A stretch of DNA of 64,000 nucleotides, from positions 2,432,001-2,496,000 of the forward strand of contig CAVWVQ010000003.1 in NCBI GenBank assembly GCA_963758525.1, in the 5' to 3' direction. Numbering within the stretch: the stretch's first letter is position 1; the number at the start of each line of letters is the position of its first letter. Under the pieces are notes generated by a model, which saw only the letters and a list, made by a program, of their open reading frames with translations, was not told where the DNA came from and ran no database searches. The position numbers and the translations under genes were made by a program. Below, piece by piece: positions 520-58,484 of this stretch. Origin of the DNA: an uncultured Phycisphaerales bacterium (GTDB taxonomy: Bacteria; Planctomycetota; Phycisphaerae; Tepidisphaerales; Tepidisphaeraceae).

Positions 520-2475
520 ATGAGCGAAAGCGAAAGCTTGGAAGAACTCGTGCGGGAGACGGTCGAGGTCACCGGAGCATCGCTCCCTGCACTGCTGGAG
601 AAGGACGCTCCGATCCTCGATCGGGCCGCGATCAGTGCTGACGGGCCGGGAGATTTCTATCTTGTCGGTCTGATCGGGGGCAAGGAAGTGGGCAAAAGCG
701 CCTTGGTCAACGCCCTGGCGGGGGAGAAGGTGACAGTCAGCACCGCGTATGGGCCGGGGACGGAAGTGGCAATCGCTTACGCGCACGCTTCTCAGGAGGG
801 CGGGGTGGGTGCGCTCCTGGAGCGGATCGTTCCGGGAAAGTTTCGCGTCGTGAAACATCAGGTGGCCGACCTGCGCGGGCTGGTGCTTCTGGATTTGCCG
901 GATATCGACAGCCATTACCGGGATCATCTGCAGACCACCCGCGCGGTGCTCCGGCATCTGCTTTTTCCCGTGTGGGTCGGAAGCGTGGAGAAATATGCGG
1001 ATCAGCAGCCGATGCGATTGCTGGCGCAGGTGGCGGCGGGGAACGCGCCGGAGAATTTTGTGTTTTGTTTGAATAAGGGGGATCAAGTGGAAGAAGGCAC
1101 GGAGGCACGGAGGCACGGAGGCACGAAGGGTGAGGAAGGGGGAGGGGGAGAGGCACGGAGGCGCGAAGGCACGGAGGCAGCGGAGGGACAGGCACGAAGG
1201 CACCAAGGCACGGAGGCACGAAGGGAAGGAACGGGGGGAGAGGATTCTGTCTCGGCTCCGCGTTTGTCTGCTGCACCTTTCTCCCCTCCACTTTCTGCTT
1301 CTCTGCTCTCTCGCGCGGGGGGCGAGGCGGTGGAAGAGTTGCGGGAGGATTATGCGGAAAGAATTGGCAGGACATTGGGTTTGGCCAGCGCGCCGCGGGT
1401 GTTTGTGATTAGCGCGATTCAACCTTTGCGGTTTGACTTGCCGGAACTGCGGGGGATGTTGATGCGGGCAAAGGCCGCTTCGGTCGTCAAAGAGTCGAAG
1501 GAACTTGCGACGCAACGGCAGGAGCGGTCGCTATTGAGTTGGTTGGGCACGCAGGAACTGCCGGTTCGGGCGCGGCGGCTGGCGCGGTTGCGGGAGGAGG
1601 CGGAGGAGTTGCTCTCCAACCGGCTGGGGGCGGCGCTGCTGGAGCGCATGGCGCCGCGCCTCGCCGCCGACGCGGGGGCGCGGCTGGCGATCGGGGATGA
1701 AGTGCTCGAAGAGCGAGTGGCGCGCTGGCCGATCGTGAATCTGGTGCATACGCTGTTTTCCCCGTTTCTGGTCATGGCGCGTGGCATGACCTCGCGGCAG
1801 GCGGTGGCGCCGCGAAGCGCCGAAAGCCTCGTGGACGCGTGCATGCGCGAGACGGAGGAGCCGGTGTCGACGCTGCTGCAGTCGGCCTTCGGGCAGTTGC
1901 GCCGATCGCAGCCGATCGTGGGAGAGTTGTATGCGGGGAATAAATTGTGGGAATCGGCCCCGGCCGATGCCGCGGCGGGGGAGTTGTCGCGCCGGTTGTC
2001 GCAGACGCTGCTGCATCAGCGTGCAGCCGTGCGCCAGCAGATGGCCGGGCGCGGGGCATGGGCTGGCCTGCCGATCCGCTGGCTGCTCACGATCGGCGCG
2101 GTGCTCTGGTTTCCGTTTGTGCAGCCGATTCTCAGCGAGGCGATGGCGAGTCATCGATCCGTCAGTTCACTGGCAGCAGCGGCACTGGTGATTGAAGTGC
2201 TCGGCGTCGATTACCTGCTCAAAAGTGCAATCTTTCTGTCGATTTGGTTTGTCGTGCTCTGGCTCGTCCTGAGATGGAACACCCAGCGCACAGTCGATCG
2301 TCTCGTGCAACGATGGGGCTCGGCGGATGTCGCCGACGCGTCAGTGAACCTCAGCGCGCAGTCGATGCAGTGGATGGAAGATCTCCTGTCGCCGATCCGG
2401 AATTCGGAGGAGCGGATCCTTTCGCTGGCCAAGCGGGTTGAGCAGTTTGACGAATCGACTCGCCGGGCGGGATGA
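520..2475 (+). CDS. Membrane-associated P-loop GTPase (MMR_HSR1/dynamin-like domain, C-terminal TM pair)
   Basis: G1 GGKEVGKS, G3 DLPD, G4 NKGD and hydrophobic C-terminal helices. Contains a repeat-derived in-frame insert. Confidence 0.75.
   Translation: MSESESLEELVRETVEVTGASLPALLEKDAPILDRAAISADGPGDFYLVGLIGGKEVGKSALVNALAGEKVTVSTAYGPGTEVAIAYAHASQEGGVGALLERIVPGKFRVVKHQVADLRGLVLLDLPDIDSHYRDHLQTTRAVLRHLLFPVWVGSVEKYADQQPMRLLAQVAAGNAPENFVFCLNKGDQVEEGTEARRHGGTKGEEGGGGEARRREGTEAAEGQARRHQGTEARREGTGGEDSVSAPRLSAAPFSPPLSASLLSRAGGEAVEELREDYAERIGRTLGLASAPRVFVISAIQPLRFDLPELRGMLMRAKAASVVKESKELATQRQERSLLSWLGTQELPVRARRLARLREEAEELLSNRLGAALLERMAPRLAADAGARLAIGDEVLEERVARWPIVNLVHTLFSPFLVMARGMTSRQAVAPRSAESLVDACMRETEEPVSTLLQSAFGQLRRSQPIVGELYAGNKLWESAPADAAAGELSRRLSQTLLHQRAAVRQQMAGRGAWAGLPIRWLLTIGAVLWFPFVQPILSEAMASHRSVSSLAAAALVIEVLGVDYLLKSAIFLSIWFVVLWLVLRWNTQRTVDRLVQRWGSADVADASVNLSAQSMQWMEDLLSPIRNSEERILSLAKRVEQFDESTRRAG
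1095..1224 (+). repeat. Octamer tandem repeat AGGCACG(G/A) inside the GTPase CDS
   Basis: aggcacgg aggcacgg aggcacgg aggcacga...; same unit as the intergenic array at 19077-19147. Confidence 0.9.
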
Positions 2476-2500
2476 CGAAACTGCGGGATTTCGCGCAGAA

Positions 2501-2592
2501 ACCGAGGGTGCAAGCACCGCTCGGCGTTCACGTTTTAAATCGCCGCTGACTGACAGAGATCTCCGAACGCCGAGGGTGCTTGCACCCTCGGT
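2501..2592. repeat. REP-like inverted doublet, family A
   Basis: ACCGAGGGTGCAAGCACCGCTCGGCGTTC ... GAACGCCGAGGGTGCTTGCACCCTCGGT between convergent genes; second copy at 7087-7171. Confidence 0.85.
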
Positions 2593-2605
2593 ATCGCGCT
2601 CCCGT

Positions 2606-3345: not shown

Positions 3346-3410
3346 GGGAGAGCTCCTGAGTGAGGGGTTATCATTTCGCGGGCCGCGCCCGCTAAACTTG
3401 CATTGAGCTA

Positions 3411-4330
3411 GGCTCTGTCTGACGGATCGAATGTTCGGCGCTCGTTAGGTATTGCGCGTTCTTCTATGATCGTCATGATGTTCTCCACATGGAGGACAGA
3501 TGGCGCACTACGAACTCACGGATGATCACTGGAACCTGATCAAGGCACTTTTCCCCGTACAAAAACGTGGCGGACGATGGAACGACCACCGCATCACGCT
3601 CAATGGGATGCTCTGGATTCTTCGCTCCGGAGCTCCATGGCGAGACATGCCCGAACGCTACGGGAAATGGAAGAGCGTCTATGATCGCTTCAACCGCTGG
3701 CGGCGCGAAGGCTTCTTCGATCGCATCCTCAAAGCACTGCGGATTCGACTCAACAAGGAGGGCAAGATCGATTGGGATCTCTGGCTCGTCGACGGCTCCA
3801 ATGTGCGTGCTTCTCGCGCTGCCGCCGGGCGCAAAAAGGGGGCGCGGCCTCGACTTCGAACCGGCCGACCACGCGCTGGGCCGCTCGCGCGGCGGATGGG
3901 GATCAAAGTTCCACGTGGTTACTGACGGAAAGGGCCTTGTGCTCGCCGTCACCGTTACCGCGGGGCAAACGCACGAATCCACGCAGCTCCACAAGGTGAT
4001 GCACGCGGTGCAGCACCCCTGCACATCGGCTGGCCGGGGAAGATCGCGGGCGACAAAGGGTACAGCTACGAAACCGTTCGCCAGTTCCTGGCCGATTGCG
4101 GGATCGAAGCCGTCATCCCGCGCAAATCCAATCAGCCACGACCAAAGGGCGAGCGATTCGATAAAAGCAGCTACCGCAAACGAAGCCGCATCGAGTGTGC
4201 TATCGGATGGCTCAAGGAATGTCGTCGGCTGGGAACACGCTATGAGAAGCTGGCTCTTAACTTCTTGAGCTTCGCCAAACTCGCTATCATGCTGAAATAC
4301 CTGAGGGTTCTCGATCCGTCAGACAGAGCC
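3411..4330 (+). mobile_element. IS5-family insertion sequence (IS427-like subgroup), 920 bp
   Basis: Perfect 20-bp terminal inverted repeats GGCTCTGTCTGACGGATCGA / TCGATCCGTCAGACAGAGCC; TA duplication (3409-3410, 4331-4332) in a CTAG target; transposase inside. Confidence 0.95.
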
Positions 4331-4333
4331 TAG
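3500..4333 (+). CDS. IS5-family DDE transposase split over frames (orfA/orfB slippery site A5G5 at 3833-3842; extra break near 4010-4040)
   Basis: LTDDHW...LRSGAPWRDMPERYGKWKSVYDRFNRW; LGRSRGGWGSKFH; DKGYS; YRKRSRIECAIGWLKECRRLGTRYEK. The stop TAG is formed by the target site. Confidence 0.9.
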
Positions 4334-5990: not shown

Positions 5991-6015
5991 AGGGTGCTGA
6001 TTGAGTTGCTTCGCG

Positions 6016-6043
6016 CGTGGCATGGGCGTCCCGTCGCCCATGC
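6016..6043. repeat. Single REP-like hairpin, family C
   Basis: CGTGGCATGGGCGTCCCGTCGCCCATGC, similar to 32621, 57851 and 62661. Confidence 0.6.
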
Positions 6044-6206
6044 GAGGTCCACCATGAGTAATAGCAATCAAATTTTCAGATGCGTCTTGATTGTCGACTT
6101 GATCAAACATTTCAATTCCGACGTTCTGGCAAAATCTGGGCTCTGCGGAAATGTCGTCCCACGCGGATCAGTGTGGACGGCAAATTGCCGATAACCAGTT
6201 AAAGAG

Positions 6207-8145: not shown

Positions 8146-8742
8146 TCACCGCAAATTGAGAAACTCCAGCATGTGCTGCTCGAAGATCTTCTGCGCCTTG
8201 GGATCGTTAAGCGGAAGCCGCAGCTCGTTGATGACTTTGGTCCCCATGCCGATCCACTCGCGCCAGCAGTCGGCGCAGATTTTTGCGAAGATCTCCTGGC
8301 CTTGGGCATTGGAGAAAGGGGCCGACGCCATCCGCCGCGCCACCCGGCCGCAGCGCTGACACAAGACCTCACCCTCGCCGACCGGCTTCTCCACCCCGCT
8401 GGCCTTCAGTTCCGGAACGGGCGCCCCAAGCTCCTTGAGCTCGCGCAGCATGTCGTTCTTCGGCATCACGTCGCCGCGCTCGTGGGCCACGTTCACACCA
8501 GCGGTCAGTTGCTCGATCGCCTGATCCTTCTGCCCCAGTTTCAGCAGCGCGGCGGCCAGCAGTTGATACGCCTTGCTCAGCTTCGGATTCAGCGCCAGAC
8601 AGCGTTTCAGGCTGGCGGCAGCTTCCGTGGCGTTGCCCGCGTCAAGATACGCCCGGCCCAGCGAAAAATGCCCAAGTTCATTGTTCGGGTCATCCGTCGC
8701 CATCTTTTTGAACTGTTCGATTCGGCTCGCGCTATCGGCCAT
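8146..8742 (-). CDS. TPR plus Fe(II)-trafficking (YggX-like) domain protein
   Basis: N-terminal TPR (HFSLGRAY, AYQLLAAAL); C-terminal CWREWIGMGTKVINELRL...EQHMLEFL. Confidence 0.8.
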   Translation of the reverse strand: MADSASRIEQFKKMATDDPNNELGHFSLGRAYLDAGNATEAAASLKRCLALNPKLSKAYQLLAAALLKLGQKDQAIEQLTAGVNVAHERGDVMPKNDMLRELKELGAPVPELKASGVEKPVGEGEVLCQRCGRVARRMASAPFSNAQGQEIFAKICADCWREWIGMGTKVINELRLPLNDPKAQKIFEQHMLEFLNLR

Positions 8743-10734
8743 GATTGCTGCTCCTCAAAGGCTCATTATAGGATCGCGCCGCCTCGGCGGCCGTGCCCAG
8801 TCGCGTGAGCGTATCTCCATCGCGGTCGTAGAGGTAGATCACCCGCCAGGGTTGCGTTCGGGCATAATACTGGAAGAGGCGGATGTTCTGGGCGCCCAGG
8901 TCATGCGCTCGAATGATGCGCGCGTCATCGGGCCAAGGGGTGTCGGTGTTATAGACCGGCTCGTGATAGGGCAGGTTCACGCTCCGATTGAACGGGTGAT
9001 ATCTGAAGAGAACCACCGCGGGGTCCGGCGGCAGTGCCGCCAACGCATTCTCGATGCGGACCAGATCCATCCACTGGCTCCAGTTGAATCCATCGGTTTC
9101 GGCGATTGCGCCGATCGACATCGCCACGACGGCAAGCGCAAAGATCGCGGCCAACTTTGGCCACAGCGACCGCAATTGTTCGATCCCCAGCACCGCGAGA
9201 AGGAGTACGCCGGGAACGAGGACAATGAGGTAGTGCGGCTGATACCAGACCGATAACGTATACAATACGCAGAAGAGTCCCGCCGTTCCCGCGAGCGCGC
9301 GTCGGCGTCGATCCGCAAGCCCCAGCAGGCCGACGGGGATGAGGGTTGCCAGCAGCGGATTGGGCAGTGTCACGGCAAGTGTCTCGGGCAATCGGTTTTT
9401 CCACCACATGCTCAACACGCTCTCAGTTTCATGCCGGTAATAGTTCGGCCAGGTCGATGTCACCATCAGCTCAAGATCTTCGGCGAGTTTGGGCGCAGGG
9501 CGCGATGCCAATCGATCTGATGAAACCCGACCATTGGTCCCGGAAAGTTTTCGGCCGCAAACTCTCCCTCGGGAGTTACGGTCCACCTTAGCGTCATCGC
9601 CTTGTTCTGAATCGCCTGCACCGCCAGGAATGGCGCAGCTGACAGAACAAACAGCGCGACCACCGGCAAGAGCGCCAACGCCACTTTCAGGAAATTCCTT
9701 TTCCCCCTCACCTGGTCGTCCGGTGCAGGCCCGCGGCGCGGGGCGTTGGTCGATGACGGTCCGTCGGAGTCGAATCTGACCTTGAATGCACCGTGACCCC
9801 CAGCGCGCCGCTCTCCGGAGGTCCCAGACGACGTGATAAACACACGAGCTTCTTCAGACGATTCGGCGAGCATCGCCCAACACACCGGCACGAGATACGC
9901 GAGGGCGTCGAGTGGTCGAGTGATCAATGCCCAGCCTGCCAGGGCGCCGATCAGCAGCACCCATCGCGTTTCGCGATCCCCACGCCATCGCAGCCACGCC
10001 CAGATCAACAACAGCCCCAGCAGCAGCATTGGGGTTTGCGACAGGAGCATCAGCGCAAGTGATCGAAACGTGGGCAGCGATATCATCATCAGGGCAGCCA
10101 GCGCCTCCGCGACCCCATCGACCAGCTCCGTTACGATGCGATACACCAGCCCGACGCTCGCTCCAGCCGACAGAACCGGAATTGCCCAGAACGGCAGATG
10201 CAGCCAGACGCCCGCAACATCCATCAACGCGGTGCCGGGATAATAGATCGACCCATATGTTGGCGATGTAAAGATCAGGTACGAGGAAAAGAAGTCAGCG
10301 ACTTCCGGCGGGATCGCCGGCATCCAGAGTCGCCCGTGCGCCAGCATTTGAAGCTGGATCATGAAACTGTGCTCGTCTTGATACCGCAGGATAAAGTCCC
10401 AATCCTGCGCGTAGGCAACCAGAAGCAACACTGCCGATGCCGCAACCGCAATCAAGATCGCCGCGCAACACCGGCCACCCGCCGACGGCGTGCGAATCCG
10501 CGCGAGTTGCACCGACACCAATTGCCGGGCCGCGGGAATGCATCCCAGGATGATCGCGACGCCTGTCAACTTCAGCTGCAGCGCAGTTCCCAGGGGCGCA
10601 TGCATCGAGAAGTACCAGATCAGCGCCCCGATCAGCCAGAGCAAGACCGTTCGGACTCCGCCCGCCCCCTGCAGTCGATTACCCAGCGTTTTCATCTTGA
10701 TTACATTAGTACAAGAGCTTTCGCTATCGGACAT
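8732..10734 (-). CDS. GT-C/ArnT-like (GT39-type) membrane glycosyltransferase, paralog 2 (frameshift near 9520)
   Basis: ORFs 9466-10734 and 8732-9586 are collinear with paralog 1; YQDEHSF motif, YYPGTA, ITRPLDA and many TM helices. Confidence 0.7.
8774..8967. repeat. 194-bp near-identical direct repeat (copy at 10766-10959)
   Basis: One mismatch seen on visual alignment; covers the 3' coding ends of the two paralogs. Confidence 0.9.
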
Positions 10735-12534
10735 GTTCGTTGCGTCTCACAACCCCATCATAGTTTCGCGCCGCCTCGGCGGCCGTGCCCAGTCGCGTGA
10801 GCGTATCTCCATCGCGGTCGTAGAGGTAGATCACCCGCCAGGGTTGCGTTCGGGCATAATACTGGAAGAGGCGGATGTTCTGGGCGCCCAGGTCATGCGC
10901 TCGAATGATGCGCGCGTCATCGGGCCACGGGGTGTCGGTGTTATAGACCGGCTCGTGATGCGCCACGTTCACGACCGGATCGTTCGGATGATAGCGAAAG
11001 AGGACGACCGCAGGGTCTGGCGGCAACGTCGCGAGATTGCTTTCGATTCTGACCAGGTCCATCCACTGGCTCCAGTTATCCGGATCGGTTTCGGCAAACG
11101 CCCCGATCGACATCGCCACGACGACCAGCGCGAATATCGGCGAAAGGCCCGGCCAAAGCAGTCTTGCCTGCGCAATTCCCAGCATCGTCATTAGAAGCAC
11201 GCCGGGCACGATGACCATGATATAGTGCGCCTGATACCAGACGGAAAGACTGTACAACAGGCAGAACATTCCCGTCGCTCCCGCAAGCACCCGCCGACGC
11301 CGATCCGTCAGCCCCAGCAGCCCGACAGGGATCAACGTGGCCAGGAGCGGGTTGGGCAGCGTGACTTGCAGCGTTCGCGGCAGGCGCTCTTTCCACCATG
11401 CCGCCGGGAGGTTGCGAATCTGGTGCGCCCGGTACGCCGGCCAGGTTGATGTTTCGAGCAGTTCGCGATCCTCGGGAAGTTTCGGCTTCGGCGCGTGAGA
11501 CCAGTCGATGCGGTGAAAGCCGAGCATTGGCGCCGGAAAGTTCTCCGCCGCAAATTGCGCCTCCGGCGGCCGGATCCAGCTCCCCGTCATTCCCGAATTT
11601 TGAACCGCTTGGAGAAGCAGAAACGGCGCTGCGGCCACGGCGAAGAGAGCGGCTGTCTGCAATCGGGCGAGCGACAGGTTCGGCGCAACTCTGTTTCTCC
11701 TCTCCGCCAGCATGGCCCAACACACCGGCACGATGTATGCCAGCGCGTCGAGCGGACGAGTGATCAGCGCCCAGCCTGCCAACGCTCCCATCGCCAGCAC
11801 CCATGCGGGACAAGGGCTTTTCCGCCAGCGAAGCCACGCCCAGATGAGGAGCAGTCCGAGCAGCAGCATCGGCGTCTGCGAGAGAAGCATCAGCGAGAGC
11901 GACCGATATGTCGGAAGCGATGCCATCATCACGGCGGCCAGCGCGCCGGCTTCCCCGTCCACCAATTCCGTGACGATGCGATAGCAGAGCCCAACGCTCG
12001 CGCCTGCGGTAAGAAGCGGAATTGCCCAAAACGGCAGATGCAGCCAGATGCCCGCGACGTCCATCAACGCGGTGCCGGGGAAATAGATCGAGCCGTAGCG
12101 CGGCGACGCCAACACCGCATAAGAGGAGAAGAAGCCGGCGATTTCAGGGGGAATCGCGGGCATCCAGAGCCGCCCGCGGGCGAGCATCTGAAGCTGCAGC
12201 ATGTAACTGTGTTCGTCCTGGTAGCGCAGGATAAAGTCCCAATCCTGCACATAAGCAAGCACGAGAAACAGCGCCGATGCCGCGATGGAAATGATTATCG
12301 CCGCGCAAATCGCTGGCTCGCCGACGGGTCCCGAATCCGTTCAAGCTGCCTCGAGATCGCTCGTCGCACCGCCGGGACGCACCCCGCGACCACCGCGATG
12401 GCCGCCAACTGCCATTGCAGCGATGTCCCCCATGGGGCGTGAAGACAGAACAGCCAGACCAGCCCCCCGATCAACCACAGACCCAATGCCCGGATGCCAG
12501 CGCCGCTTGCGAGTCGATTACCTGGCGTTTCCAT
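10724..12534 (-). CDS. GT-C/ArnT-like membrane glycosyltransferase, paralog 1 (frameshift near 12300)
   Basis: ORFs 12295-12534 and 10724-12262 joined; YQDEHSY, YFPGTA, ITRPLDA; overlaps folE stop and paralog 2 start. Confidence 0.7.
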
Positions 12535-13144
12535 CTTTGGCGTACATCAGCGCGAGCACCTCCGCCCGACTGGCAGAGTTCTCCTTAAAGATACCACGCA
12601 ATGCGCTGGTGACCATGACGCTGCCCGGCCGCTTCACGCCCCGGATGGTCATGCACGTATGCGATGCCTCGATGACGCACGCCGCGCCAACCGGATTCAG
12701 CTCGTCCATCAGCGCGTCGGCAATTTGCGTGGTCAATCGCTCCTGCACCTGCGGCCGCCGGGCATAATCCTCGACGAGCCGCGCCAGTTTGCTCAGACCG
12801 ACGACGCTTCCTGCCGGGAGATATGCGACGTGGGCCTTGCCGGTGAATGGGAGCAGATGATGTTCGCAAAGCGAATGGAACGAGATATCGCGCAGCAGCA
12901 CGACTTCATCATATCGCTCATGAAAGACGGTTTTGAGATGCCGTCGCGGATCGACTCGCAATCCTGCCATCAGCTCTGCATAGGAGCGTGCCACACGGCC
13001 GGGGGTCTTTGCCAGGCCCTCGCGATCGGGATTTTCACCGACGGCCAGCAAGATCTCGCGAACCGCCTTCTCGATCCGCTCCTGATCGACCTGGCCTGCG
13101 TCCGAATCGTGGCGTTCAGTTTCCGGTTTGCGATTTGCCGCCAT
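12518..13144 (-). CDS. folE: GTP cyclohydrolase I
   Basis: [50 protein letters not shown]. Start may be 13159. Confidence 0.95.
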
Positions 13145-14501: not shown

Positions 14502-14589
14502 CCATGTGACGAAGCCTCCGCGAGTTCTGAAACGGGTTCCACGACTAAGCCGCCTCGAAAATTCCGTCGCTCCATCTACAATCCGTCAC

Positions 14590-18648: not shown

Positions 18649-19077
18649 ATGCCGGTTCGAAGCGCGGACGCAGTGTGGGAAGGCGATCTCAAATCTGGCA
18701 AGGGAAAAGTGAAGGTGGAGAGCGGATCCTTCGAGGGGCAATACTCATTTTCGACCCGTTTTGAGAGCGGCAAGGGGACTAATCCCGAAGAGCTGATCGC
18801 GGCTGCCCACTCCGGCTGCTTCGCGATGGCGCTGTCGGCGGGGCTGGGCAAAGCCGGCTTCACTCCAACGAAGATTTCCACAACCGCGAAGGTCACGCTC
18901 GACAAGGTTGGCGAAGGATTCAAGATCACGCTGATCAAGCTGTATACCGAAGCGTCGGTGCCGAAGATTGACGAGAAGCAGTTTGCCGAGATCGCGACCG
19001 CCACCAAGAGCGGTTGCCCGGTTTCGCAGGCGCTGTCGGCGACGAAGATCGAATCGGAAGCGAAGCTGGTGAAGTAG
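18649..19077 (+). CDS. osmC: OsmC family peroxiredoxin
   Basis: GTNPEELIAAAHSGCFAMAL and CPVSQAL; AAGGAG RBS. Confidence 0.93.
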   Translation: MPVRSADAVWEGDLKSGKGKVKVESGSFEGQYSFSTRFESGKGTNPEELIAAAHSGCFAMALSAGLGKAGFTPTKISTTAKVTLDKVGEGFKITLIKLYTEASVPKIDEKQFAEIATATKSGCPVSQALSATKIESEAKLVK

Positions 19078-19147
19078 GCATTGAGGCACGAAGGCACGAA
19101 GGCGCGAAGGCACCGAGGCACGAAGGCACGAAGGCACGAAGGCACGA
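19077..19147 (+). repeat. Octamer tandem array (GAAGGCAC)n, about 9 units
   Basis: gaggcacgaaggcacgaaggcgcgaaggcaccgaggcacgaaggcacgaaggcacgaaggcacga. Confidence 0.92.
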
Positions 19148-27761: not shown

Positions 27762-29780
27762 GTGTCGACTCGCGTATTTTGGAATGCGCGTATCTGGAAT
27801 GCCTTCATTCGGGCGGCTTGGGGCGATATAGTCACTGAAGTGACGCGAGGATCCAGAATTGCGGTTTTGTCGGCGTTTACCGCCGTCGCATTTTTGGCAT
27901 CTCTGGGACATCGCGATATCGCAACCAGCCACGAAGCCCGCGTGGCCCAGACTGCGCGCGAAATGGCCGTCACGGGTTGGCCCTTGTCGGCGCGGAAGGT
28001 GAACGCCCCGCCGGTCGCGCTGACCAGCATTCGTGGCATGGTCCGGCTCACGCCCGATCTTCTGGCGGAGCCGATCGCGGTCAATAGCTGGGCTGTCCCC
28101 CTTCTCAACGGCGAAATCCGCCTGCAAAAGCCGCCGCTTCCCTACTGGTGCGCGGCGATTCTCTTTCGGCTGTTTGGTTTCAGCGAAGCCGCCGCCCGTT
28201 TTACTCCAGCACTGATGGGCTCACTGGCGACGATCTTTGTATACGACCTGACTCGCATGCTGCTGGGCCGCTGGAAGGCGAGACTTGCCGCGCTCGTCTG
28301 GATCACCACTCTTTTCATCCCTGAAGAATTTCGCAAGGCGATGGCAGATCCGTATCTGGCGTTCTTCACGCTCGTCTGCATCTGGGCATGGATTAAGGCC
28401 GCCAAGATCGCGCGCGACGGGCGCAGTGCGCAAAACGATCCCCGGTCGGCGCCTCTGTGCGTCGTCATCTTCTACGTATCTCTCGCTTTGGGAATCCTTG
28501 CGAAAGGGCCGCCGCTTTTTTTGCACATCGGCATCGCTCTCGCTGCGTTTCACTATTGTTATCGCTGGCCGTTGCCGCGCGGGTTGGGCGGCCATCTCAT
28601 CGGACTGACGGCTCTGGCGCTCATCGCCCTCCCCTGGCCGATCTACGTCATCCGGCACATCCCCCATGCCGTCGATCTGTGGCGCTATGAATCGGTTGGC
28701 GAGCTTTCGGATAACGTCGAGAATGCCCGCCCGCTATGGTTCTACGCGCCCAACGTCGTCTTCATCGCCCTCCCCTGGGCAGCAGCATGGATCGCCGGCT
28801 TCATCGTGCCGCTGCGGCGCGCCAGGAATTCGAGGGTGAGCCGCTCTTCCCCCCTTCCCTGGTACTCCGCGGGAGGGTCGGGGTCGGGGCCGGGGCCGAG
28901 ATTGGAAACAGCGCAGACGTCCAAGACCCAGCAGGACCAGGAGAGTGAAGGACCCGCTTCAGTGCTCAGTCTCCAAGGATTTCCGCTACGTGCCTCTACC
29001 CGAGGCCGGCGGCTTTTCCCGATGATCTGGTTTGCCGCCACCGTCATCTTTTTTTCCTTAGTGCATCTCAAGAAGAATCCCTATCTCCTCCCCGCCGCTC
29101 CCGCGCAAACGCTGCTGATCGTTGAAGGGCTTGCCGCCGCGCTTGCGGTCGCCCGGCGTGCGCGCGGCTGGACCTGGGGCGGCGGAATTCTCGCCGCCCA
29201 GACCGCGATCGGAATCGCCGGATGCATCTTCGTTCTCATCGCCCTGCGCGTCGCTGCGCCACCGGCCTATCGCCATTTTGCAATGACGATCTGTGCCTTG
29301 GCCGTCTGTTGCTGGACGATCGTCGTTCTTCAATTACGAAACCCGATGGCGTGGGTCTGGTGGCAGGCAAGCGGGTATCTGCTTCTCATTCTGGGCGTGA
29401 TGCTGACGCTGGAGACAAGAATCGACAACGCCCGCTCCGCCAAGTCGCTTTGCGCCGAGTTGGCACTGCACGCCGAGGCCCCCGACACCGCCATCTTGCG
29501 AGCGCGATTGCCCGAAGAAGTCGCTGTCTATCTGCCGCTCAAGGAAGAGCCAGCCCTGGCACGGCACGTCCTGGTGGTCGTGGATGATCAGTTTGCGGCG
29601 CGCGAGCGTGTCAAAACGCATGTCCCACCGCCGATTCCGTCTCCCGAACATTTCGATAGCAGCTTTCCCGACGGCCGCGTTCTTTTTGTCGATCGCATCC
29701 CGATGAAGACTGCCCCCGGCGACGCGCGATGGAAGGTCTACGATCTGACCGTCGAGCGGTTGCGTTACGCAGCGAGATGA
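27762..29780 (+). CDS. ArnT/GT39-family membrane glycosyltransferase (start may be ~27840)
   Basis: HEARVAQTAREM, RLQKPPLPYW, LAKGP and multiple TM helices; repeat-derived insert at 28827-29007. Confidence 0.85.
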   Translation: MSTRVFWNARIWNAFIRAAWGDIVTEVTRGSRIAVLSAFTAVAFLASLGHRDIATSHEARVAQTAREMAVTGWPLSARKVNAPPVALTSIRGMVRLTPDLLAEPIAVNSWAVPLLNGEIRLQKPPLPYWCAAILFRLFGFSEAAARFTPALMGSLATIFVYDLTRMLLGRWKARLAALVWITTLFIPEEFRKAMADPYLAFFTLVCIWAWIKAAKIARDGRSAQNDPRSAPLCVVIFYVSLALGILAKGPPLFLHIGIALAAFHYCYRWPLPRGLGGHLIGLTALALIALPWPIYVIRHIPHAVDLWRYESVGELSDNVENARPLWFYAPNVVFIALPWAAAWIAGFIVPLRRARNSRVSRSSPLPWYSAGGSGSGPGPRLETAQTSKTQQDQESEGPASVLSLQGFPLRASTRGRRLFPMIWFAATVIFFSLVHLKKNPYLLPAAPAQTLLIVEGLAAALAVARRARGWTWGGGILAAQTAIGIAGCIFVLIALRVAAPPAYRHFAMTICALAVCCWTIVVLQLRNPMAWVWWQASGYLLLILGVMLTLETRIDNARSAKSLCAELALHAEAPDTAILRARLPEEVAVYLPLKEEPALARHVLVVVDDQFAARERVKTHVPPPIPSPEHFDSSFPDGRVLFVDRIPMKTAPGDARWKVYDLTVERLRYAAR

Positions 29781-29804: not shown

Positions 29805-29991
29805 TTAGGGCCCGCGCACGAATAACTTGCTCAAATAATTTCGAAGTTAGCGGAGGGCGATTCCCCTGTAGCACAGCCGTCTGGGCTGTGATTTCGGGCC
29901 ACAGCCGAGACGGCGCCAAGACGGCCGTGCTACGCAATTGCGTCACCTGTAGCTTCGAAATTGCTCAAGCTATTCGTGCGCGAGCACGTAG
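29805..29991. mobile_element. MITE-like element with nested GTAG-footed REP doublet, family G (29867-29933)
   Basis: Inverted ends GCGCACGAATAACTTGCTCAA / TTGCTCAAGCTATTCGTGCGC; empty homolog at 56790-56900. Confidence 0.75.
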
Positions 29992-32569: not shown

Positions 32570-32620
32570 AATTGTCTCAGTTCGTCTCTATTGTTGACGC
32601 CGCTGATCAAGGTTGCTGCC

Positions 32621-32732
32621 CCGTGGCATGGGCGTCTCGCCCATGTTAGCGGCACGGAGCTTCAAAAAAGCCCTTGCTATCCCAAGTTTTCGACTCCCGC
32701 GTCGCCAACACGGGCGGGACGCCCGTCCAACG
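32621..32732. repeat. REP-like doublet, family C
   Basis: CCGTGGCATGGGCGTCTCGCCCATGTT ... AACACGGGCGGGACGCCCGTCCAACG. Confidence 0.75.
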
Positions 32733-43300: not shown

Positions 43301-46300
43301 GGAGCCGTTTGTCGGCATGAAGCGAAGTCCCGCGGAGCCCTGGGCGGCGGTGACAAAGTCGCCGTTGAGGATCGCGTTTCCGTTTTGATCGAAGAGCGTT
43401 CCGCCCGTAATGCCGGTGATTTGAAAGTAGCTTACCACCGGTCCGTCGATCGCATTGCGGGCAATCACCAGCCCGCTGGACGTCTCCTGGTTGATGACCG
43501 TCTTCGCATTCGTGATTGATGGCGTATGAGCGACCGCTGTGATCGCTAATGCAATTGTCGCATTGGCGCTATTGACCCCTTCGCTCACGGAAGCGGCGAG
43601 GCTGGCGCTGCCCACATAGTGCGTCGCCGGCACAAACTGCAGGCCGTTCATCGCGTTGTTCAGGCTTGTCAATGTTCCGGTGAACGTCAGGGAAGCCGCG
43701 CCGGACGCCGTGCCGCTGGTAAAGGAGATTCCGGAGACGCTTGCGAGCGTGAGTGTCCCATTTGTCGCCGTCAGAGTGACAGAGGCGTTACCGTTCGCGT
43801 TGCCAGGATCGCTCACGCTGATCGCGTCGGAGTTTCCGGCGGAGAAGACCAGCGGCGCATCTTCCGCGGTCGTTCCTGTGGCAGGCGCGGCGAGCGAGGG
43901 AACGGGTCGTATTGTTATCGTTGCAGCGACGATCGATCCGCCGAGCCCCGAAGCGCTGTTCGATGTCGAGGCTTGGACGCTGAACAAGCCTGCTGCCGTC
44001 GAGTTGGTTGCGGGATTGAAAAGCAATCCTGCTTCGCCGGCGGCGAAGGTGATGAATTGGCCGTCGCTGATCAGATTTCCATTGCTGTCGGAAAGTGAAC
44101 CGCCGGCGATCCCGGTGATCTGGAAATATCCCGGTATCGACGTATCGAGCGAATTGGGGGTGATGACCAGACCGCTGGTGCTTTGGACATTTTCATTCGT
44201 GCTGGCGGTGGTGACCGACGGCGTGTGAGCGGCCTGATCGACAGTGATTGCGACCGACCCGTTCACGGCGTTGGAGCCTTCGCTCACTGAGATTGCCAGG
44301 CTTGCCGACCCGGAATAGTGCGTGCCCGGCACAAACTGCAGGCCGCTCAGAGCAGCATTGAGATGGGCGAACGTACCGCTGAAAGCGTCACTGCTGCTGC
44401 CGCTGAAACTGCCGCTGCTGAAGGTCAGACCAGTTGCACTTGCCAATATCAGCGTGCCATTGCTGGCGGTCAGCGTTACGGAAGCGGTCCCGCCGCTGTT
44501 GCCGGGATCGCTGACCGAGATTGCGTTTCCGTGGGCGGCGGAAAATACCAGCGAGGTATCCTCGTTGGCGGTCGCGTTGGTGGGCGAAACGAGAAGGGGC
44601 ACCGGCTTTACGACGATGCTGTCAGCCACGACCGAACCCCCAAGGCCAGACGCACTGTTGGATGTCGACGCCTGAATATCGAACATGCCGGCGACGGTCG
44701 AGTTGGTTGTGGGATTGAAAACCAATCCTGCTTCGCCGCTGGCGAAGGTGATGAACTGGCCGTTGCTGATCGGATTTCCATTATTGTCCGACAGTGACCC
44801 GCCGGTGATGCCGGTGATCTGGAAGTACCCCGACAGTGAAGAATTCAGTGCATTGGGAGTGATGACAAGACCGCTCGTGGTCGGCGTGTTTTCGTTGGTG
44901 GCAGCGGGGCTTGCCGTTGGAGTGTAGGCAACCTGGGCGACGGCGGGCGTTGCGTATAGCTGGAAGAAGACTCCATTGTTGTCGCCGGCTCCCTGCCCAT
45001 CCCAGGCGACCACCGCATGCGCGTCATACCAGGCGATCGCTGCATCCTGCTGATTGCCCTGGGTTGTGGTATTGACGAGAAATTGGCCGCCGTTGGCAGA
45101 CCCGTCCGCCTTGAACGCCTGTCCGAAGACGCCATTGCCGTTCCCATCGAGATTATTTCCGGCAGTCCACGCAACCAGATAGCTGCCGTCAGCGCGCACG
45201 GCAATCGCCGGCTTGGTCTCCATGGCGGCGCCGGGGTCGCTCAACTGCACCGGCGAGGCGTCCAGGGCGGTGCCGGCCGCATTGTACCGGCGCGTATAGA
45301 TGCCCTGACCAGGGCCACTCTCGGACCAGGCGACCACAAAGTTTCCCGAATCGTCGATGCCCACCGCGGAAAGATCTTGGTTATTGCCTCCGCTGGCGCC
45401 GACCAGGATTTCTGCCGATGGCGAGCCGGAGGCGGGAAGCAGAGCCGCCTTGATCGTCTGTGCAGGGTTCTTGTCCGTCCAAGTCACCACGCTGCCGCCC
45501 TGCGGGTCGGTTGCGATCGCGGGATTGGTCTGCGGTCCAGTGACGGTCGCGTTCATCAGAACGGCGCCGCCGTTGGCCGCTCCGGCGGCGGTGAAACGCT
45601 GCGCGTAAATTCCGTCGTTGTCGCCGGCCCGGTTTCCCTCATAAACAATGGTAAATGAACCGTCGGCTGCCATGGCGACAGCGGAGGGTGTATTGCCCTG
45701 TCTCGCGGAGCTGACCAGCGTATCACCGGTCAGCGCGGTTCCCGCCGCGTTAAACACCTTGGCGTAGACGCTATTCCCGTTACCGTTCCACGAGACAACG
45801 AACTGGCCCGATGTGTTCATCGCCACCGACGGCGCGGGGGAGCCGCCGGCCTGCAACGTGTTTACCTGAAATTGGCTTCCGACGGCAGTGCCGGACGCGT
45901 TGTACAGTTGGGCGTTCACTTCGCCGCCCGCGGCGCCATCCTCCCAGACCACGATAAAGTTGCCGGAATCATCCATCGCCACCGCAGGCAACTGCTGGTT
46001 GCCCCCGGTGGAGGCGGTGTTGACCAGTGTCTCGCCGCCCAAAGGCGTGCTGACCGGCCCGGCCGCCCCGATCGTGAAAGGCCTGCTGCCCGACAGCGGT
46101 CCGGCAGTTGCCGTCACGGTGCCGGTGCCGGTCGTAGAGGGGGCCAGGTAGAGACCCGAATTGCTCAGCGTGCCCGGCCCAGTCAGTGAATAATTAATCC
46201 CCGGCTGAGGCGACACCGCATCGCCGAACTGGTCTTGCACCGTTCCAGTGAACTGCTGCAGATCATTTGCCGGCACCGTGGCATTGGCTGGCGCGACAAC

Positions 46301-48176
46301 CACTAATGTCGCGGTTTGATGGACCATCACGTTCACGGAACTTGTGGTTGACAGTCCGCCTGCGTCGGTGACGGTCACCTGAAAAACGTAGGAGCCGGCT
46401 TTGCTGAACGTTGCCGTGGCGTTTTTCGAGGCATTGGTTCCGTTGCTGCTGAAATTGACTGCCGCCGGCGGTGTACCCGTAGTGCTCCAGGTGTAGGTAA
46501 GATTGGATGCGCCCCCATCGTCGGCCCCGAGAACGCTTAATGCCGTGGCGGTGCCGTTGACATTGTTCGGCGCCGCTGCCGCGGGCGTGGCCACCGTTGG
46601 AGGCGCGTTGACCGTGATCGTCACCGTTGCCGCGCTCGAAGTCAGAACGCCGTCAGTGGCCTTATAGGTAAATGAGTCTGTTCCGGTGTATCCGGAAGTG
46701 GGGGTATATGTGAACCCTCCCTGCTTGGCCGGGTCCCATACAAGCGTGCCGTGCGCGGGATTGGTCTGCAGAATTGCGGTTAGCGGAGAGTTGAGAAAGT
46801 CGGTGTCATTCGATAACACTCCGGGAGCTGCGACCGTAAGTGTCTGATTTTTATTGACGGCATATTGGTCATTCGTCGCGGCGGGCGGGAGTAACAACAA
46901 CGTGTCCGCCCAGTTTCGCTGAACGGCACGGCTCATGGCGATGGGCGTTTGAATTCGGCCAGTGGCATATTCCAGATTCCAGTTTCCGCCCAGGGCTTTC
47001 TGCCCTGTCAGGTCAGTGCTGGCGGCCACGGCCGCGCCGCTCAGATTCGCAATTGCGTCGACAAACGCCTTTCCACTGCTTCCCTCGGCAACATCGCAGC
47101 CGTAGAGCAGCAGGTCGGCTCCTGAGGCAAGCGATTGACGCCATGCATTGATCGACGCGGCATAGGTGTCCAGGTCGCCGGCGCTGAGCAGCACGCTTCC
47201 AAGTTGCAGCTCCCCCGCATTGCCGTGCGTGATGAGGTGAATCGCCGTGATCCCAGTGCGCCCGGCGAGCGTGTCGGTGATTTGCGCGACGCCGTCGCGC
47301 GTCGGGTCTAGCAGCACGATTTGATCGCCGGGCGCGGCCTGCCGGACACCGGCGAGCAGCGTTTTCCAATGCGGGACAGAGGTATCCACAAAGACAATCG
47401 CTGTATTGCGATGAACAGTGGCAATATTCGGTTGAGCCCCCCTGCCGTGCGTGGCTAGCGTGTGCTTTTGGCCTGAAGTGCTGTCGACCTTCAGGGCTCC
47501 AGCGGGTGTCGGCTCTGGCGGCGCGCTGTCCGGCAGGCTTCCCGCCAGGTAGCGCTGGCTGAAAATTTCCTGTATGCCGGCCGGTCCTTTGCCGTGCCAT
47601 GAGACGGCGAAATCACCGGCCGAATCGATGGTGACGGCAGACCGTCGCGCCTCGCCCGTCTTGCTGCCCGACACGACGTATTCGTTGCCCGCAGGCTCGC
47701 CGGAGCTGTCGTATTCGCGAGCGCAAATCGCGCCGCCGTTTTCGCTGCTGGTCCAACTGACCACAAAGCTGCCCGACGCGTTCATCGCCACGGCAGGCTG
47801 TGCCTGATGTGCGGCGGCAGTCTGATTGATACGAAACTCGGAGCCGACCTGCGCGCACCGCTGTGTCAAATCGTTGGCCGTAAATGCCCGGCCCCTGCCC
47901 GTCCTGCCCGTTATCAGACCAGACGGCGACGTAGTTGCCCGATCGGTCGATTGCGATCACGGGGTTCAGCTCGGCGTAGGTCTTATTGGTATTGACGACC
48001 TTCTCGGTGCCCGTCAGCGAGAAGCTGAACATCATCCGCGATTCGAGCCGCTCAACCTCGGCTAGTTGCCGAAAGATGCAATTGAAGCGCAGGCTGCTTC
48101 CGATGGCGGCAGCGCATGCCAGCGAACGACGACAGAGCGAGCGCAACTGTTTCAAACCGATGGCTTGAGCAGACAT
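40382..48176 (-). CDS. Giant surface protein (~2,600 aa): LEPRxLL-like motif, DUF4347, Ig/cadherin-like repeats, C-terminal TM (frameshift near 47860)
   Basis: ERLESRMMFS; DUF4347 (IHLITHG...LLLYGCDVA...GGNWNLE); Ig-like TDSFTYKATDG; five GYF(Q/K)IT(G/N)I(T/A)GG repeats; Pro/Ala linker; TM followed by SSMPAWNFVDPLPIL. Confidence 0.85.
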
Positions 48177-55046: not shown

Positions 55047-55113
55047 GATTTCTGCAACAAATGATCGCTCGTGGGATGACCACAGGGGGAATTCATCTCA
55101 ACCGGGAGACTCG

Positions 55114-56374: not shown

Positions 56375-56391
56375 GCAATCCTCGGACGACT

Positions 56392-56799
56392 ATGACCTAC
56401 GACCAACTGATCTCGCTGTACTTCGAGCGCTCCAACGCGCTGCAATGGTATTGGACACTCTATGTCGTCATCATCGGCGGGCTGCTCGCGTTCTCGTCGA
56501 TTCGTAAAGAGCCGGACCGCGTCACGGCAGCCCTGGTGACAGTGCTGTTCTGCTTTTTCGCCTACAAGAATCTCGGCGCCATCCACGACGTCACGGACCA
56601 ACGGCTGGCGATTCTGCAGATGATCAGGCAATCATCTCCGGTGGAAGCGGGGCGCGCTCACGACGCGTTGCTCGAAGCAACGCTGCATCCGCCGGTGTAT
56701 GAAGCCGTGCGAAATTTCCATGTCGCCAGCGATCTGTTGACGATTCTTGCCGTCTGGGCGATGGAACGCCGCCGCCGGCGCGCGGCCGCTGCGCGATGA
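56392..56799 (+). CDS. Hypothetical membrane protein
   Basis: 135-aa ORF with about three hydrophobic segments. Confidence 0.7.
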   Translation: MTYDQLISLYFERSNALQWYWTLYVVIIGGLLAFSSIRKEPDRVTAALVTVLFCFFAYKNLGAIHDVTDQRLAILQMIRQSSPVEAGRAHDALLEATLHPPVYEAVRNFHVASDLLTILAVWAMERRRRRAAAAR

Positions 56800-56900
56800 T
56801 GACCTGCTCAAATAAACTCGAAGCCGGCCGAAGGTGATTCCCCGTAATTGCGTCACTTCCAAATTCGACATTGATCAAGTTATTCGTGCGCGAGCACTCA
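56790..56900. mobile_element. Empty copy of the MITE-like element at 29805-29991
   Basis: TGCTCAAATAA..TCGAAG...GATTCCCCGTAATTGCGTCAC...TTGATCAAGTTATTCGTGCGCGAGCAC aligns end to end. Confidence 0.75.
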
Positions 56901-56945
56901 GCTGCGCCGCTATGCAGCAGCGATTCGCAGTTTCGATGCTATTCG

Positions 56946-58484
56946 TCAAATTGCGCGGCTCGATGCCGTCCGCTGTACAGCGCCGTTAATCGGGGGAAAA
57001 AGAATTCCAAAGCCGCGAATCGCCGCCTCGGCTTCCGGACGAATCACCATCGTGGGACGAGCGTTGCGCAGCATGGCAATCGCTTGATCCGGCGACTCTG
57101 CTTCTCCACTGGCAATCAGCCATGCGCCAGCCACGGCGGCTGTGCGCGAGTAGCCGGCTTTGCAATGAACATACACAATGCCGCGCGCGGCACGCTCGCT
57201 GATCCACGCACAAGCGTCGTGGAGCTGCGCCGGCAAAGGCGCGGTCAAATCCAGGAGGGGGAGATTACGGTAATCCAAGCCGCGAAACGCGCGCGGCTCG
57301 GAGAATTCAGCGGTGAGATCGAGAACCGCAGTAACGCCGGCGGCGATCGCCGCCCGGGCCTCGGCGTCGGAGAGCTTGCGGCCGATCCAGACGTGATCGG
57401 TTACGCGGTTCCATGGCTGGCACTGTCGCGCGTAGTGTGCCAGCGAGAGGCGCTGGCCAAGCAGGATCGGCGCCAGCAGCAGTTGCGTTGTGAAGGGAAG
57501 TCGGCCGTGGTTCTTGCGATAGATTCCCGGCCCCAGCCCGCAATACGCGACGCCGATCAGCAGACACGATGTCGCCGGCCAAAAGAGAAGCCACGTCCAC
57601 GGCCGGCTGATCAGCGCGCCGGTCGCCAGCACCAGCGCACCAGCCAGGTAGTATGTTCCCGCGCGGATGTTCACGCTCGCCGGCTGTCGTAGCGGCTCAT
57701 CCGCGATGAAATGAAAGCACGCGATGGCCAGCCCAAAGCCAGTGATGACGTCGATCACGTGATGTTGGTAAGTCAGCACCGCTGAGAGCAGGATCAACGC
57801 GAACCAAAGCCAGATTGCGGCATGGGCGCTTCTCTGGAGGAGACACTTCCCCGTGGCACGGGCATCTTGCCGGTGCTGGAATCGTGGTACGGAAGCAAGC
57901 TCTCGATATCCGCGATTGCTGTCGTTCCATGTCGCTAACACGGGCGGGACACCCGTGCCACGGGGAGAATCCGTGCCCCCATCATGAGGCTCGCTGAAAA
58001 CCTCTCGTGCGTTGCCCGGAGAGGGTGTGACGCGAGCACGGAATTGTTTTGCATAATGCACGGCCAGGATCATTCCCAACGCGATATGAAGCGACGGGGC
58101 CTGATTGAACGGTTGGTCGGCGGCGCGGAAATTGTCGAAGATCATCCCGAGCCAGCCCTGCACGGGCGGGCGGTCAAACGCGAAGCGCAAAGGGAATAGC
58201 AGAAAGCAACAGCCGGCAATCAGGATGGCGGCGGCGATGCGCCGCGCCAGCGTACGGCGCTCCAGATCGTCGCGGCAGAAAAAAGGGGACGCGATAAAGA
58301 AGAGGTCGATCGACAGGTAGGGAAGGATCATCAGCGGCACGAAGGGAATGTGCCGTTCCCACGAGAACGGAAAGCTGGGCACGTGCGGCCGAAGAGAGGC
58401 GAGCCAATTGGTCGTGCAATACACAACGAGAAACAGCGCACAGAGCAGGGCGGAGGTTTTGGCGGCTTTCCAGCTCATCTGCAT
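56946..58484 (-). CDS. PAP2 plus dual-specificity phosphatase fusion (YnbD-like)
   Basis: WERHIPFVP, FNQAPSLH, YQHHVID, YVHCKAGYSRT; in-frame repeat insert. Confidence 0.88.
   Translation of the reverse strand: MQMSWKAAKTSALLCALFLVVYCTTNWLASLRPHVPSFPFSWERHIPFVPLMILPYLSIDLFFIASPFFCRDDLERRTLARRIAAAILIAGCCFLLFPLRFAFDRPPVQGWLGMIFDNFRAADQPFNQAPSLHIALGMILAVHYAKQFRARVTPSPGNAREVFSEPHDGGTDSPRGTGVPPVLATWNDSNRGYRELASVPRFQHRQDARATGKCLLQRSAHAAIWLWFALILLSAVLTYQHHVIDVITGFGLAIACFHFIADEPLRQPASVNIRAGTYYLAGALVLATGALISRPWTWLLFWPATSCLLIGVAYCGLGPGIYRKNHGRLPFTTQLLLAPILLGQRLSLAHYARQCQPWNRVTDHVWIGRKLSDAEARAAIAAGVTAVLDLTAEFSEPRAFRGLDYRNLPLLDLTAPLPAQLHDACAWISERAARGIVYVHCKAGYSRTAAVAGAWLIASGEAESPDQAIAMLRNARPTMVIRPEAEAAIRGFGILFPPINGAVQRTASSRAI
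57851..57963. repeat. REP-like doublet, family C, inside the YnbD-like CDS
   Basis: CCGTGGCACGGGCATCTTGCCGGTG ... CACGGGCGGGACACCCGTGCCACGG. Confidence 0.85.

What the first reader, a model, noticed from the sequence alone, without database searches (positions are those of the whole stretch)
1090..58040. Four different repeat types inserted in frame into four genes of one window
Seen: the GTPase (1090-1320), GT paralog 2 (9700-9870), ArnT-like gene (28827-29007) and YnbD-like gene (57830-58040) each carry a 50-80 aa hydrophilic insert. For three of them the DNA matches a repeat that is also intergenic in this window; the fourth is a palindrome absent from the adjacent paralog. All keep the reading frame and appear to lie in loops. 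Known: in-frame palindromic inserts are best described for Rickettsia palindromic elements. Inference: this lineage routinely domesticates several REP and short-tandem-repeat families into protein loops, and the density here suggests a genome-wide process.
Basis: partly seen in the sequence, partly recalled or inferred. Interest (0 to 1): 0.8.

Follow-up and report, generated by a model that had tools for sequence, protein, structure and literature searches.

The report
Mobile repeats keep refilling protein loops
Four genes in this window carry in-frame inserts built from three families of short DNA repeats scattered through the genome, and related bacteria fill the same predicted loops, including loops of essential enzymes, with other unrelated repeats, which likely reflects tolerated selfish DNA rather than a useful new protein part.

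Summary
All four inserts are real, in frame, hydrophilic and missing from most orthologs. They come from three families, not four: an 8-nt tandem repeat (dynamin-like GTPase), a BoxC-like palindrome (ArnT, and a decayed copy in GT2), and a REP encoding the peptide of Opitutus GTAG-19 (YnbD). Genome-wide, 52 of 1336 repeat elements lie inside long ORFs. In 940 orthologous genes they are about 43-fold depleted, and 14 of 15 inserts are frame-safe against about 19% by chance. This window is the densest of 98 tiles. Across the family the same loops of ValRS, PriA, the GTPase and ArnT hold unrelated repeats in different genera. Some of these repeat families flank RAYT, DUF559 or four-helix-bundle genes, and whole cassettes sit in frame in DinG, DnaE2 and ValRS. 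Best reading: selfish insertions filtered by selection and repeatedly replaced, not domestication. Intragenic REPs are published (Rickettsia, Opitutus); I found no paper on the family-wide loop turnover. This scan noted the same themes on other genomes. Translation is untested.

The parts
520..2475 (+). Host 1: dynamin-like GTPase, 651 aa, open frame, GTPase motifs conserved with orthologs
   Evidence: Pfam MMR_HSR1 weak; alignment A1; best fold matches bacterial dynamin-like BDLP 2J68/2J69, E 5e-9, low TM-score
1090..1329 (+). In-frame insert just after the NKxD motif: AGGCACG(G/A) 8-nt array (1095-1224) plus a pyrimidine-rich tail
   Evidence: pLDDT under 50 at residues 204-262
19076..19147 (+). 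Intergenic copy of the same 8-nt array
8732..10734 (-). Host 2: PMT_2 (GT-C) glycosyltransferase paralog 2, split by a 1-nt deletion near 9500, likely a sequencing error
9713..9865 (-). 153-nt in-frame insert: decayed two-armed CCCTC..GAGGG (BoxC-like) element
10724..12535 (-). Adjacent paralog 1 without the insert; own 1-nt deletion near 12308
27867..29780 (+). Host 3: ArnT-like GT-C glycosyltransferase, open frame
   Evidence: fold match to ArnT 5F15/5EZM, E 1e-13
28818..29003 (+). 62-aa loop; one BoxC-like arm at 28843-28890, the rest not assignable
   Evidence: pLDDT under 50 over the loop
14337..14475 (.). Intergenic two-armed copy of the BoxC-like family
56946..58484 (-). Host 4: YnbD-like membrane protein with dual-specificity phosphatase domain, HCxxGxxR motif intact
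57828..58049 (-). 74-aa insert between two hydrophobic segments: inverted GTGGCACGG REP pair (57846-57967) plus a decayed BoxC-like arm (about 57984-58031)
   Evidence: (fold z -3.4)
32617..32726 (.). Intergenic copy of the GTGGCA REP family
62657..62785 (.). Intergenic copy of the GTGGCA REP family
6014..6047 (.). Single intergenic arm of the GTGGCA REP family

Best explanation
The four inserts are copies of three dispersed repeat families that sit in frame in predicted surface loops, likely because selection removed the copies that broke a gene and tolerated these. The repeats are inferred to be the gene-less ends of small cassettes (inverted repeats around a RAYT transposase, DUF559 nuclease, four-helix-bundle or GxxExxY gene) that spread through the genome. 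Most land between genes. A few loops accept them, so those loops are filled, decay (GT2, ArnT), and are refilled or overwritten by whichever repeat is active in a lineage. Shown: repeat origin, frame preservation, depletion in genes, different fillings of one loop, cassettes flanked by some of these repeat families. Inferred: mobility, which enzyme moves which repeat, translation, neutrality.
For: Repeat origin with shuffle controls. 19 of 75 insertions against G034 orthologs match 5 or more other genomic places, against 1 of 225 control coding segments. In 940 ortholog pairs, 16 elements in 14 genes; all 16 keep a multiple of 3 and 15 are stop-free. Counting DinG's two ends once, 14 of 15 are frame-safe against about 0.19 expected, P about 1e-9; density 0.017 per kb against 0.74 outside called genes. 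ValRS loops hold repeat-like inserts in 10 of 11 and 13 of 16 cases, other ValRS insertions in 1 of 28. G036's BoxC-like insert in the GTPase loop lies outside the 100/99-supported clade holding this genome, and G036 has many copies of that repeat. Cassettes: 2 of 5 DUF559 loci have BoxC-like arms on both sides; 4 of 8 four-helix-bundle genes and 14 of 46 Y1-like hits have one repeat family on both sides. Whole cassettes in frame: REP-RAYT-REP in DinG, an 8-mer-flanked four-helix-bundle gene overlapping the open DnaE2 frame, Y1 domains in ValRS of G001 and G026.
Against: No RNA or protein evidence was available. No RAYT gene flanked by the YnbD repeat was found in this genome. The four-helix-bundle cassette in DnaE2 carries a sibling 8-mer (AGGGAC..), not exactly AGGCACG. 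A family's share inside genes does not track its share of stop-free frames (Spearman 0.16, p 0.55, 16 families), so frame selection alone does not explain which families get in. One insert (UbiE/MenG ortholog) has in-frame stops. 119 of 940 genes carry small frameshifts in this assembly, so gene integrity cannot be read directly. No empty and filled pair of close strains was available.
Confidence: 0.68

Rival explanations
1. Adaptive domestication: the repeat-encoded loops have been recruited for a function such as regulation, binding or mRNA structure.
For: Some loops are filled in many genera: 16 of 30 ValRS loci at one loop, 18 of 40 PriA matches broken at one position.
Against: The fillings are unrelated in sequence, length and peptide. 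The loops are short in many relatives. Old copies decay while keeping only the frame.
Confidence: 0.08
2. The tandem-repeat loops arise in place by replication slippage of local sequence, without a mobile element.
For: Slippage explains copy-number growth in the GTPase array (16 units, 74% matches); purine-rich profiles give background hits (33 on the reversed genome against 150).
Against: The same 8-mer occurs at about 125 dispersed elements, often as mirror-image arm pairs, as in PriA. Palindromic families fill the same loops. Related arrays flank four-helix-bundle genes.
Confidence: 0.1
3. The inserts are removed at the RNA level, like 23S rRNA intervening sequences, and never reach the protein.
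For: Two-armed elements fold into long stems (YnbD z -3.4); the four-helix-bundle cassette has the layout of the Coxiella IVS (PMC4990558, passages).
Against: Strict frame and stop avoidance is expected only if the insert is translated. IVS excision as described cleaves the RNA into fragments. GTPase, ArnT and GT2 inserts form no stable stem.
Confidence: 0.07
4. The host genes are pseudogenes or the inserts are assembly artefacts.
For: GT2 is frameshifted; the assembly has many 1-nt deletions.
Against: Three hosts have open frames and intact motifs. ValRS, found at one locus only, is also split by a frameshift here, so such breaks are likely errors. Independent assemblies show inserts at the same loops.
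Confidence: 0.05

Closest known systems
Intragenic GTAG REPs of Opitutus terrae (Di Nocera et al. 2013, PMC3733652; read: abstract, passages, section 5, parts 1-2 of 3 of supplement 3; Figure 1 not held)
   Same: Several REP families in frame in many genes of one PVC genome (70 O. terrae rows). GTAG-19 dimers encode GTGVPPV...HGRDARAT, the peptide of the YnbD insert. Targets include DnaE2, UvrA, PurL and helicases.
   Different: That list covers GTAG/CGTC palindromes only; in the parts read there are no 7-8-nt tandem arrays, no BoxC-like family, no whole cassettes in frame and no comparison of one loop across a family.
Rickettsia palindromic elements (Ogata 2000, 2002; seen only through passages of reviews PMC10969869 and PMC3184786; the 2002 paper is not held)
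   Same: About 150-nt repeats read in frame inside housekeeping genes, thought compatible with the fold.
   Different: Nearly half of RPEs are genic as reviewed; here 4%. Sequence relationship not tested. Here tandem arrays and gene-bearing cassettes do the same.
BoxC / PIT / TM intrastrand-triplex repeat (Holder et al. 2015, PMC4666352; passages and Table 1)
   Same: CCCTCNCCC...GGGNGAGGG-N3-GGGNGAGGG layout, often in inverted pairs.
   Different: The first spacer is 7-9 nt here (76 matches; 0 with the published 3-6). E. coli copies are always intergenic; here 24 of 259 loci are inside ORFs and two DUF559 genes are flanked by it.
REPtrons / TnpA-Y1 family (Quentin et al. 2018, PMC6006769; passages and section 27)
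   Same: Y1 transposase genes flanked by hairpin repeats that are also dispersed; class 3 is reported mainly from Planctomycetes.
   Different: The paper discarded unexpectedly long proteins as fusions or annotation errors; here such units sit in frame in DinG and ValRS.
S23p-bearing 23S rRNA intervening sequence (Warrier et al. 2016, PMC4990558; passages)
   Same: Four-helix-bundle gene inside terminal inverted repeats with tandem heptamers.
   Different: Here the cassettes lie between or inside protein genes, and gene-less arms are in coding frames.

Membership tests
GTAG-type REP (GTAG-19-like), YnbD insert | Short stem-loop with a GTAG/GTGG tag, paired as an inverted dimer | tested here: met
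   GTGG-tagged arms at 57846-57967, fold z -3.4
GTAG-type REP (GTAG-19-like), YnbD insert | Dispersed and mainly extragenic | tested here: met
   109 loci, 4 inside ORFs, 0 on the reversed genome
GTAG-type REP (GTAG-19-like), YnbD insert | Match to the published GTAG-19 sequence | tested here: inconclusive
   Encoded peptides match supplement 3 rows; the DNA consensus is in a figure that is not held
GTAG-type REP (GTAG-19-like), YnbD insert | A RAYT gene flanked by this REP | tested here: inconclusive
   None found in this 91%-complete genome; other families do have one
BoxC/PIT/TM repeat, ArnT and GT2 inserts | TMECO consensus with a 3-6-nt first spacer | tested here: not met
   0 strict matches; 76 with a 7-9-nt spacer. 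A relative, not a strict member
BoxC/PIT/TM repeat, ArnT and GT2 inserts | Forms an intrastrand triplex | not testable with these tools
   needs CD or NMR
Rickettsia palindromic elements | Repeat inserted in frame in a conserved gene, absent from orthologs | tested here: met
Rickettsia palindromic elements | Sequence homology to RPE families | not tested
   no RPE sequence was fetched
Rickettsia palindromic elements | Insert is present in the expressed protein | not testable with these tools
   no proteome or RNA data on hand
S23p/IVS-type cassette (source of the 7-8-nt arrays) | PF05635 gene between inverted tandem arrays | tested here: met
   4 of 8 by k-mer family on both sides, 6 of 8 by eye; DnaE2 case confirmed
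S23p/IVS-type cassette (source of the 7-8-nt arrays) | Located in 23S rRNA and excised by RNase III | tested here: not met
   the loci inspected lie between or in protein genes; excision itself not testable
REPtron | Y1 HUH transposase gene flanked by its own repeat on both sides | tested here: met
   23 PF01797 matches; 14 of 46 Y1-like hits have one family on both sides, 7 of them a terminal-inverted-repeat type

The most novel reading that the evidence does not exclude
Several unrelated 'gene-in-a-hairpin' cassettes (RAYT, DUF559, four-helix bundle, GxxExxY) and their gene-less arms preferentially insert into older repeat remnants, so a few loops of essential proteins act as long-lived landing pads that are overwritten again and again: a protein-internal niche for mobile DNA that needs no splicing. 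Hints: nested and composite inserts (a heptamer array inside a BoxC-like pair in G009 ValRS; two families in YnbD; three in DnaE2), the same family at both ValRS loops in 4 of 9 genomes by eye, and only 1 of 28 repeat-like inserts at other ValRS positions that also vary in length. Caveat: those other positions may hold old folded subdomains rather than tolerant loops.
Probability: 0.35. Interest if true: 0.75.

Novelty: new variant of a known kind. Interest (0 to 1): 0.5.

Why it matters
In-frame repeats are usually described one genome and one repeat family at a time. Here one bacterial family shows the same loops of ValRS, PriA and other proteins holding eight or more unrelated repeat kinds, and sometimes a whole transposase or four-helix-bundle gene. 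That maps naturally tested insertion-tolerant sites, warns that such indels are poor phylogenetic markers, and makes two open questions testable: what moves BoxC-like and heptamer/octamer repeats, and whether insertion is targeted to older repeats or only filtered by selection.

Tried and rejected
GT2 insert as a separate palindrome family: rejected. ArnT's second half as the right arm of the repeat: not supported, 252 of 1000 shuffles score as well. Stop-free capacity as the predictor of which families enter genes: no correlation. A protein Ig-like repeat and two transposase-end families were dropped from the repeat counts, four k-mer families in all. The family-wide pattern scan used a 9-nt spacer where this genome's repeat has 8, so its counts are not used; one search corrected it for 5 genomes only. 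Shared ancestry of the YnbD inserts of this genome and G007 could not be excluded: same site, same REP superfamily, unresolved tree. G003's long loops in the GTPase and GT homologs and the same-genus ArnT loops showed no repeat by eye and were not tested against their own genomes. G034 has few repeat-like inserts of its own by the BLAST test (2 of 97; half its genome held). Sequence search of the PDB with the ArnT-like protein found nothing; the fold search did. Public runs: no RNA holder listed, one DNA run with a 0.05 share that covers only 946-1230; no evidence either way. Only 2.4 of 4.9 Mb of G034 could be compared, and PriA loops were read for 14 long-loop and 2 short-loop genomes chosen, plus G000 and G034. 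Ten paper searches listed no paper on family-wide refilling of one loop, on DUF559 with BoxC-like arms, or on four-helix-bundle/GxxExxY genes with tandem arrays outside rRNA; subscription papers and bioRxiv supplements are not covered. Unpublished genome G004 is one short-loop row in each; it was left out of the alignments, trees, and no claim depends on it.
Full report
Setting. The window is G000:C3:2432001-2496000 of a 6.47-Mb, six-contig genome, GC 0.61, 91% complete. No call names the organism; the nearest named YnbD homologs are Phycisphaerales, Tepidisphaeraceae and other PVC genomes, so a planctomycete is inferred. Against 2.4 Mb of a family member (G034, about half its genome), 119 of 940 ortholog pairs show a small frameshift, 64 of 126 events being 1-nt deletions. 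ValRS, found at one locus only, is split the same way, so I read these as long-read errors.

The four inserts. All four exist, keep the frame and are hydrophilic. The GTPase loop is 80 aa against 3-14 aa in 22 of 24 orthologs; the exceptions are G003 (61 aa, no repeat seen) and G036 (42 aa, BoxC-like repeat). The GT2 insert is 153 nt relative to the adjacent paralog, and 15 of 16 scorable homologs are short there. The ArnT loop is 62 aa against 3-13 aa outside the genus, but 43-45 aa in both same-genus genomes, so the repeat may have entered an already long loop. The YnbD loop is 74 aa against 0-6 aa in 8 of 9 family loci, and short in 71 of 72 scorable loci across several phyla. AlphaFold2 models place the GTPase insert (pLDDT under 50 at 204-262, rest of the model mostly 80-95) and the ArnT insert in unstructured loops; low confidence is partly expected where the alignment has no rows. 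Folds match bacterial dynamin-like proteins and ArnT. GT2 and YnbD loops were not modelled; they lie between hydrophobic segments.

Three families, not four. Profiles from intergenic copies outside the window match the GTPase (8-nt AGGCACG[G/A] array), ArnT (CCCTC..GAGGG palindrome) and YnbD (GTGGCACGG REP pair), each above 300 of 300 shuffles (the YnbD profile there rested on 3 sequences and was rebuilt from 85 arms). The GT2 insert has weak hits to both arms of the ArnT family in the right order and aligns end to end far above shuffles and coding controls: it is an old copy of that family. YnbD also holds a decayed arm of it. The YnbD repeat encodes GTGVPPV...RDARAT, as O. terrae GTAG-19 dimers do (PMC3733652 supplement 3). 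The CCCTC family has the BoxC/TM layout with a longer spacer (PMC4666352).

Genome-wide. About 40 short repeat families were found by k-mers. After dropping four non-repeat families, 1336 elements remain, 52 of them inside 46 long ORFs of my own gene model. Anchored on orthologs: 16 elements in 14 of 940 genes, all multiples of 3, 15 stop-free; the exception is a UbiE/MenG ortholog with two stops in a 447-nt insert, which may be real or error. With DinG's two ends counted once, 14 of 15 are frame-safe against about 0.19 expected. Density is 0.017 per kb in conserved coding DNA and 0.74 per kb outside called genes. Hosts named through their G034 orthologs include CarB, PriA, DinG/YoaA, TreY, PurL, RarA, RadA and IleRS, and ValRS has two inserts. 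With profiles for the three window families, 39 ORFs carry one; this window is the only tile of 98 with three, which chance predicts about 0.7 times.

The same loops in relatives. In 30 ValRS loci, inserts of 12 aa or more recur at reference positions about 205 (11 loci) and about 531 (16 loci), aligning near residues 205 and 511 of Thermus ValRS 1GAX (surface exposure not checked). By a tandem, hairpin or library test, 10 of 11 and 13 of 16 are repeat-like, against 1 of 28 inserts at other positions. By eye the first loop holds seven to nine unrelated kinds. PriA matches break at one position in 18 of 40 genomes; 8 of 14 long loops read from other genomes are repeat-like, again of many kinds (chosen for being long). 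In the window's genes, G036 has a BoxC-like insert in the GTPase loop and falls outside this genome's clade, G021 has four CCTTCAT heptamers in the ArnT loop, and G007 has a related REP at the YnbD site, where shared ancestry is not excluded. Kin are not independent, but unrelated repeat kinds at one site need separate events.

Likely sources. The genome has 23 Y1 transposase, 8 four-helix-bundle, 4 GxxExxY and 6 DUF559 matches. Two DUF559 genes sit between BoxC-like arms; four-helix-bundle and GxxExxY genes sit between mirror-image 7-9-nt arrays (4 of 8 four-helix-bundle genes by k-mer family, 6 of 8 by eye; 3 of 4 GxxExxY by eye); 14 of 46 Y1-like hits have one repeat family on both sides. 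Whole units occur in frame: REP-RAYT-REP in DinG (579 nt), a four-helix-bundle gene with AGGGAC-type 8-mer arms overlapping an open DnaE2 frame, and Y1 domains inside ValRS of G001 and G026. That these genes move the repeats is inference; for the YnbD family no flanked transposase was found.

Mechanism. Repeat arms spread, most copies land between genes, those that break genes are lost, and those that keep the frame in a tolerant loop persist, decay and are replaced (0.68). Whether insertion also seeks older repeats is open (novel case). Domestication is unlikely because no insert sequence is kept. Translation is inferred from frame selection only.

What is known. In-frame REPs and RPEs are published for Rickettsia and for O. 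terrae, with the very peptide seen in YnbD. I found no paper, in ten searches of the held library, on one loop being refilled by many repeat kinds across a family, on tandem arrays from four-helix-bundle cassettes in coding frames, or on DUF559 with BoxC-like arms. Unchecked notes of this scan report each of these themes on other genomes; I reached the cassette and loop results before reading them, and they gave me the BoxC and IVS papers.

Verdict. Observation partly confirmed, interpretation partly supported. A new variant of a known kind; interest 0.5.

Noticed in passing
L099:598-3210 (G000:C3:1311954-1312623, - strand): DinG/YoaA helicase carries a 579-nt in-frame unit: REP, RAYT-like HUH domain (NF047646 E 1e-16, under its cut-off), two REP copies.
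   Followed up: partly
L348:138-4569 (G000:C3:4375037-4379468): DnaE2 has a four-helix-bundle gene in another frame inside its open reading frame, flanked by 8-mer arms, plus three further repeat-derived loops.
   Followed up: partly
L250 and L252 (ValRS of G001 and G026): A Y1 transposase domain of about 700-750 nt sits in frame in ValRS at the same loop in two genera.
   Followed up: partly
L240 (ValRS of G009): A GAATGAC heptamer pair is nested inside a BoxC-like pair in one loop.
   Followed up: partly
window 11685-11705 (- strand): GT paralog 1 has a purine run resembling the right end of the BoxC-like repeat at the site where GT2 has its insert, and is 4 aa longer there than most homologs; it may be a deletion remnant.
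   Followed up: no
window 8800-8940 and 10790-10930: The two GT paralogs are about 70-75% alike but nearly identical over about 165 nt near their 3' ends: recent gene conversion or an assembly effect.
   Followed up: no
window 3408-4333: A DDE transposase element with 23-nt perfect terminal inverted repeats; about 30 k-mer loci of its ends in the genome, one copy interrupting a Y1 transposase gene.
   Followed up: no
window 29807-29987 and 56799-56898: A low-copy palindromic element with two copies in the window; the first has an ACAGCCG-type REP pair inserted in its middle.
   Followed up: no
window 40382-47869 (- strand): A 2495-aa ORF with repeats of about 233 aa, not examined.
   Followed up: no
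window 14506-16120: The FGGY sugar kinase appears split in two ORFs, another probable frameshift error.
   Followed up: no
L041, L273, L319: YnbD homologs carry further long inserts at other loops, some repeat-like by eye.
   Followed up: no
G000:C3:1241179-1241677: UbiE/MenG ortholog with a 447-nt composite insert and two in-frame stops; another frame is open across them, so compensating indel errors are possible.
   Followed up: partly
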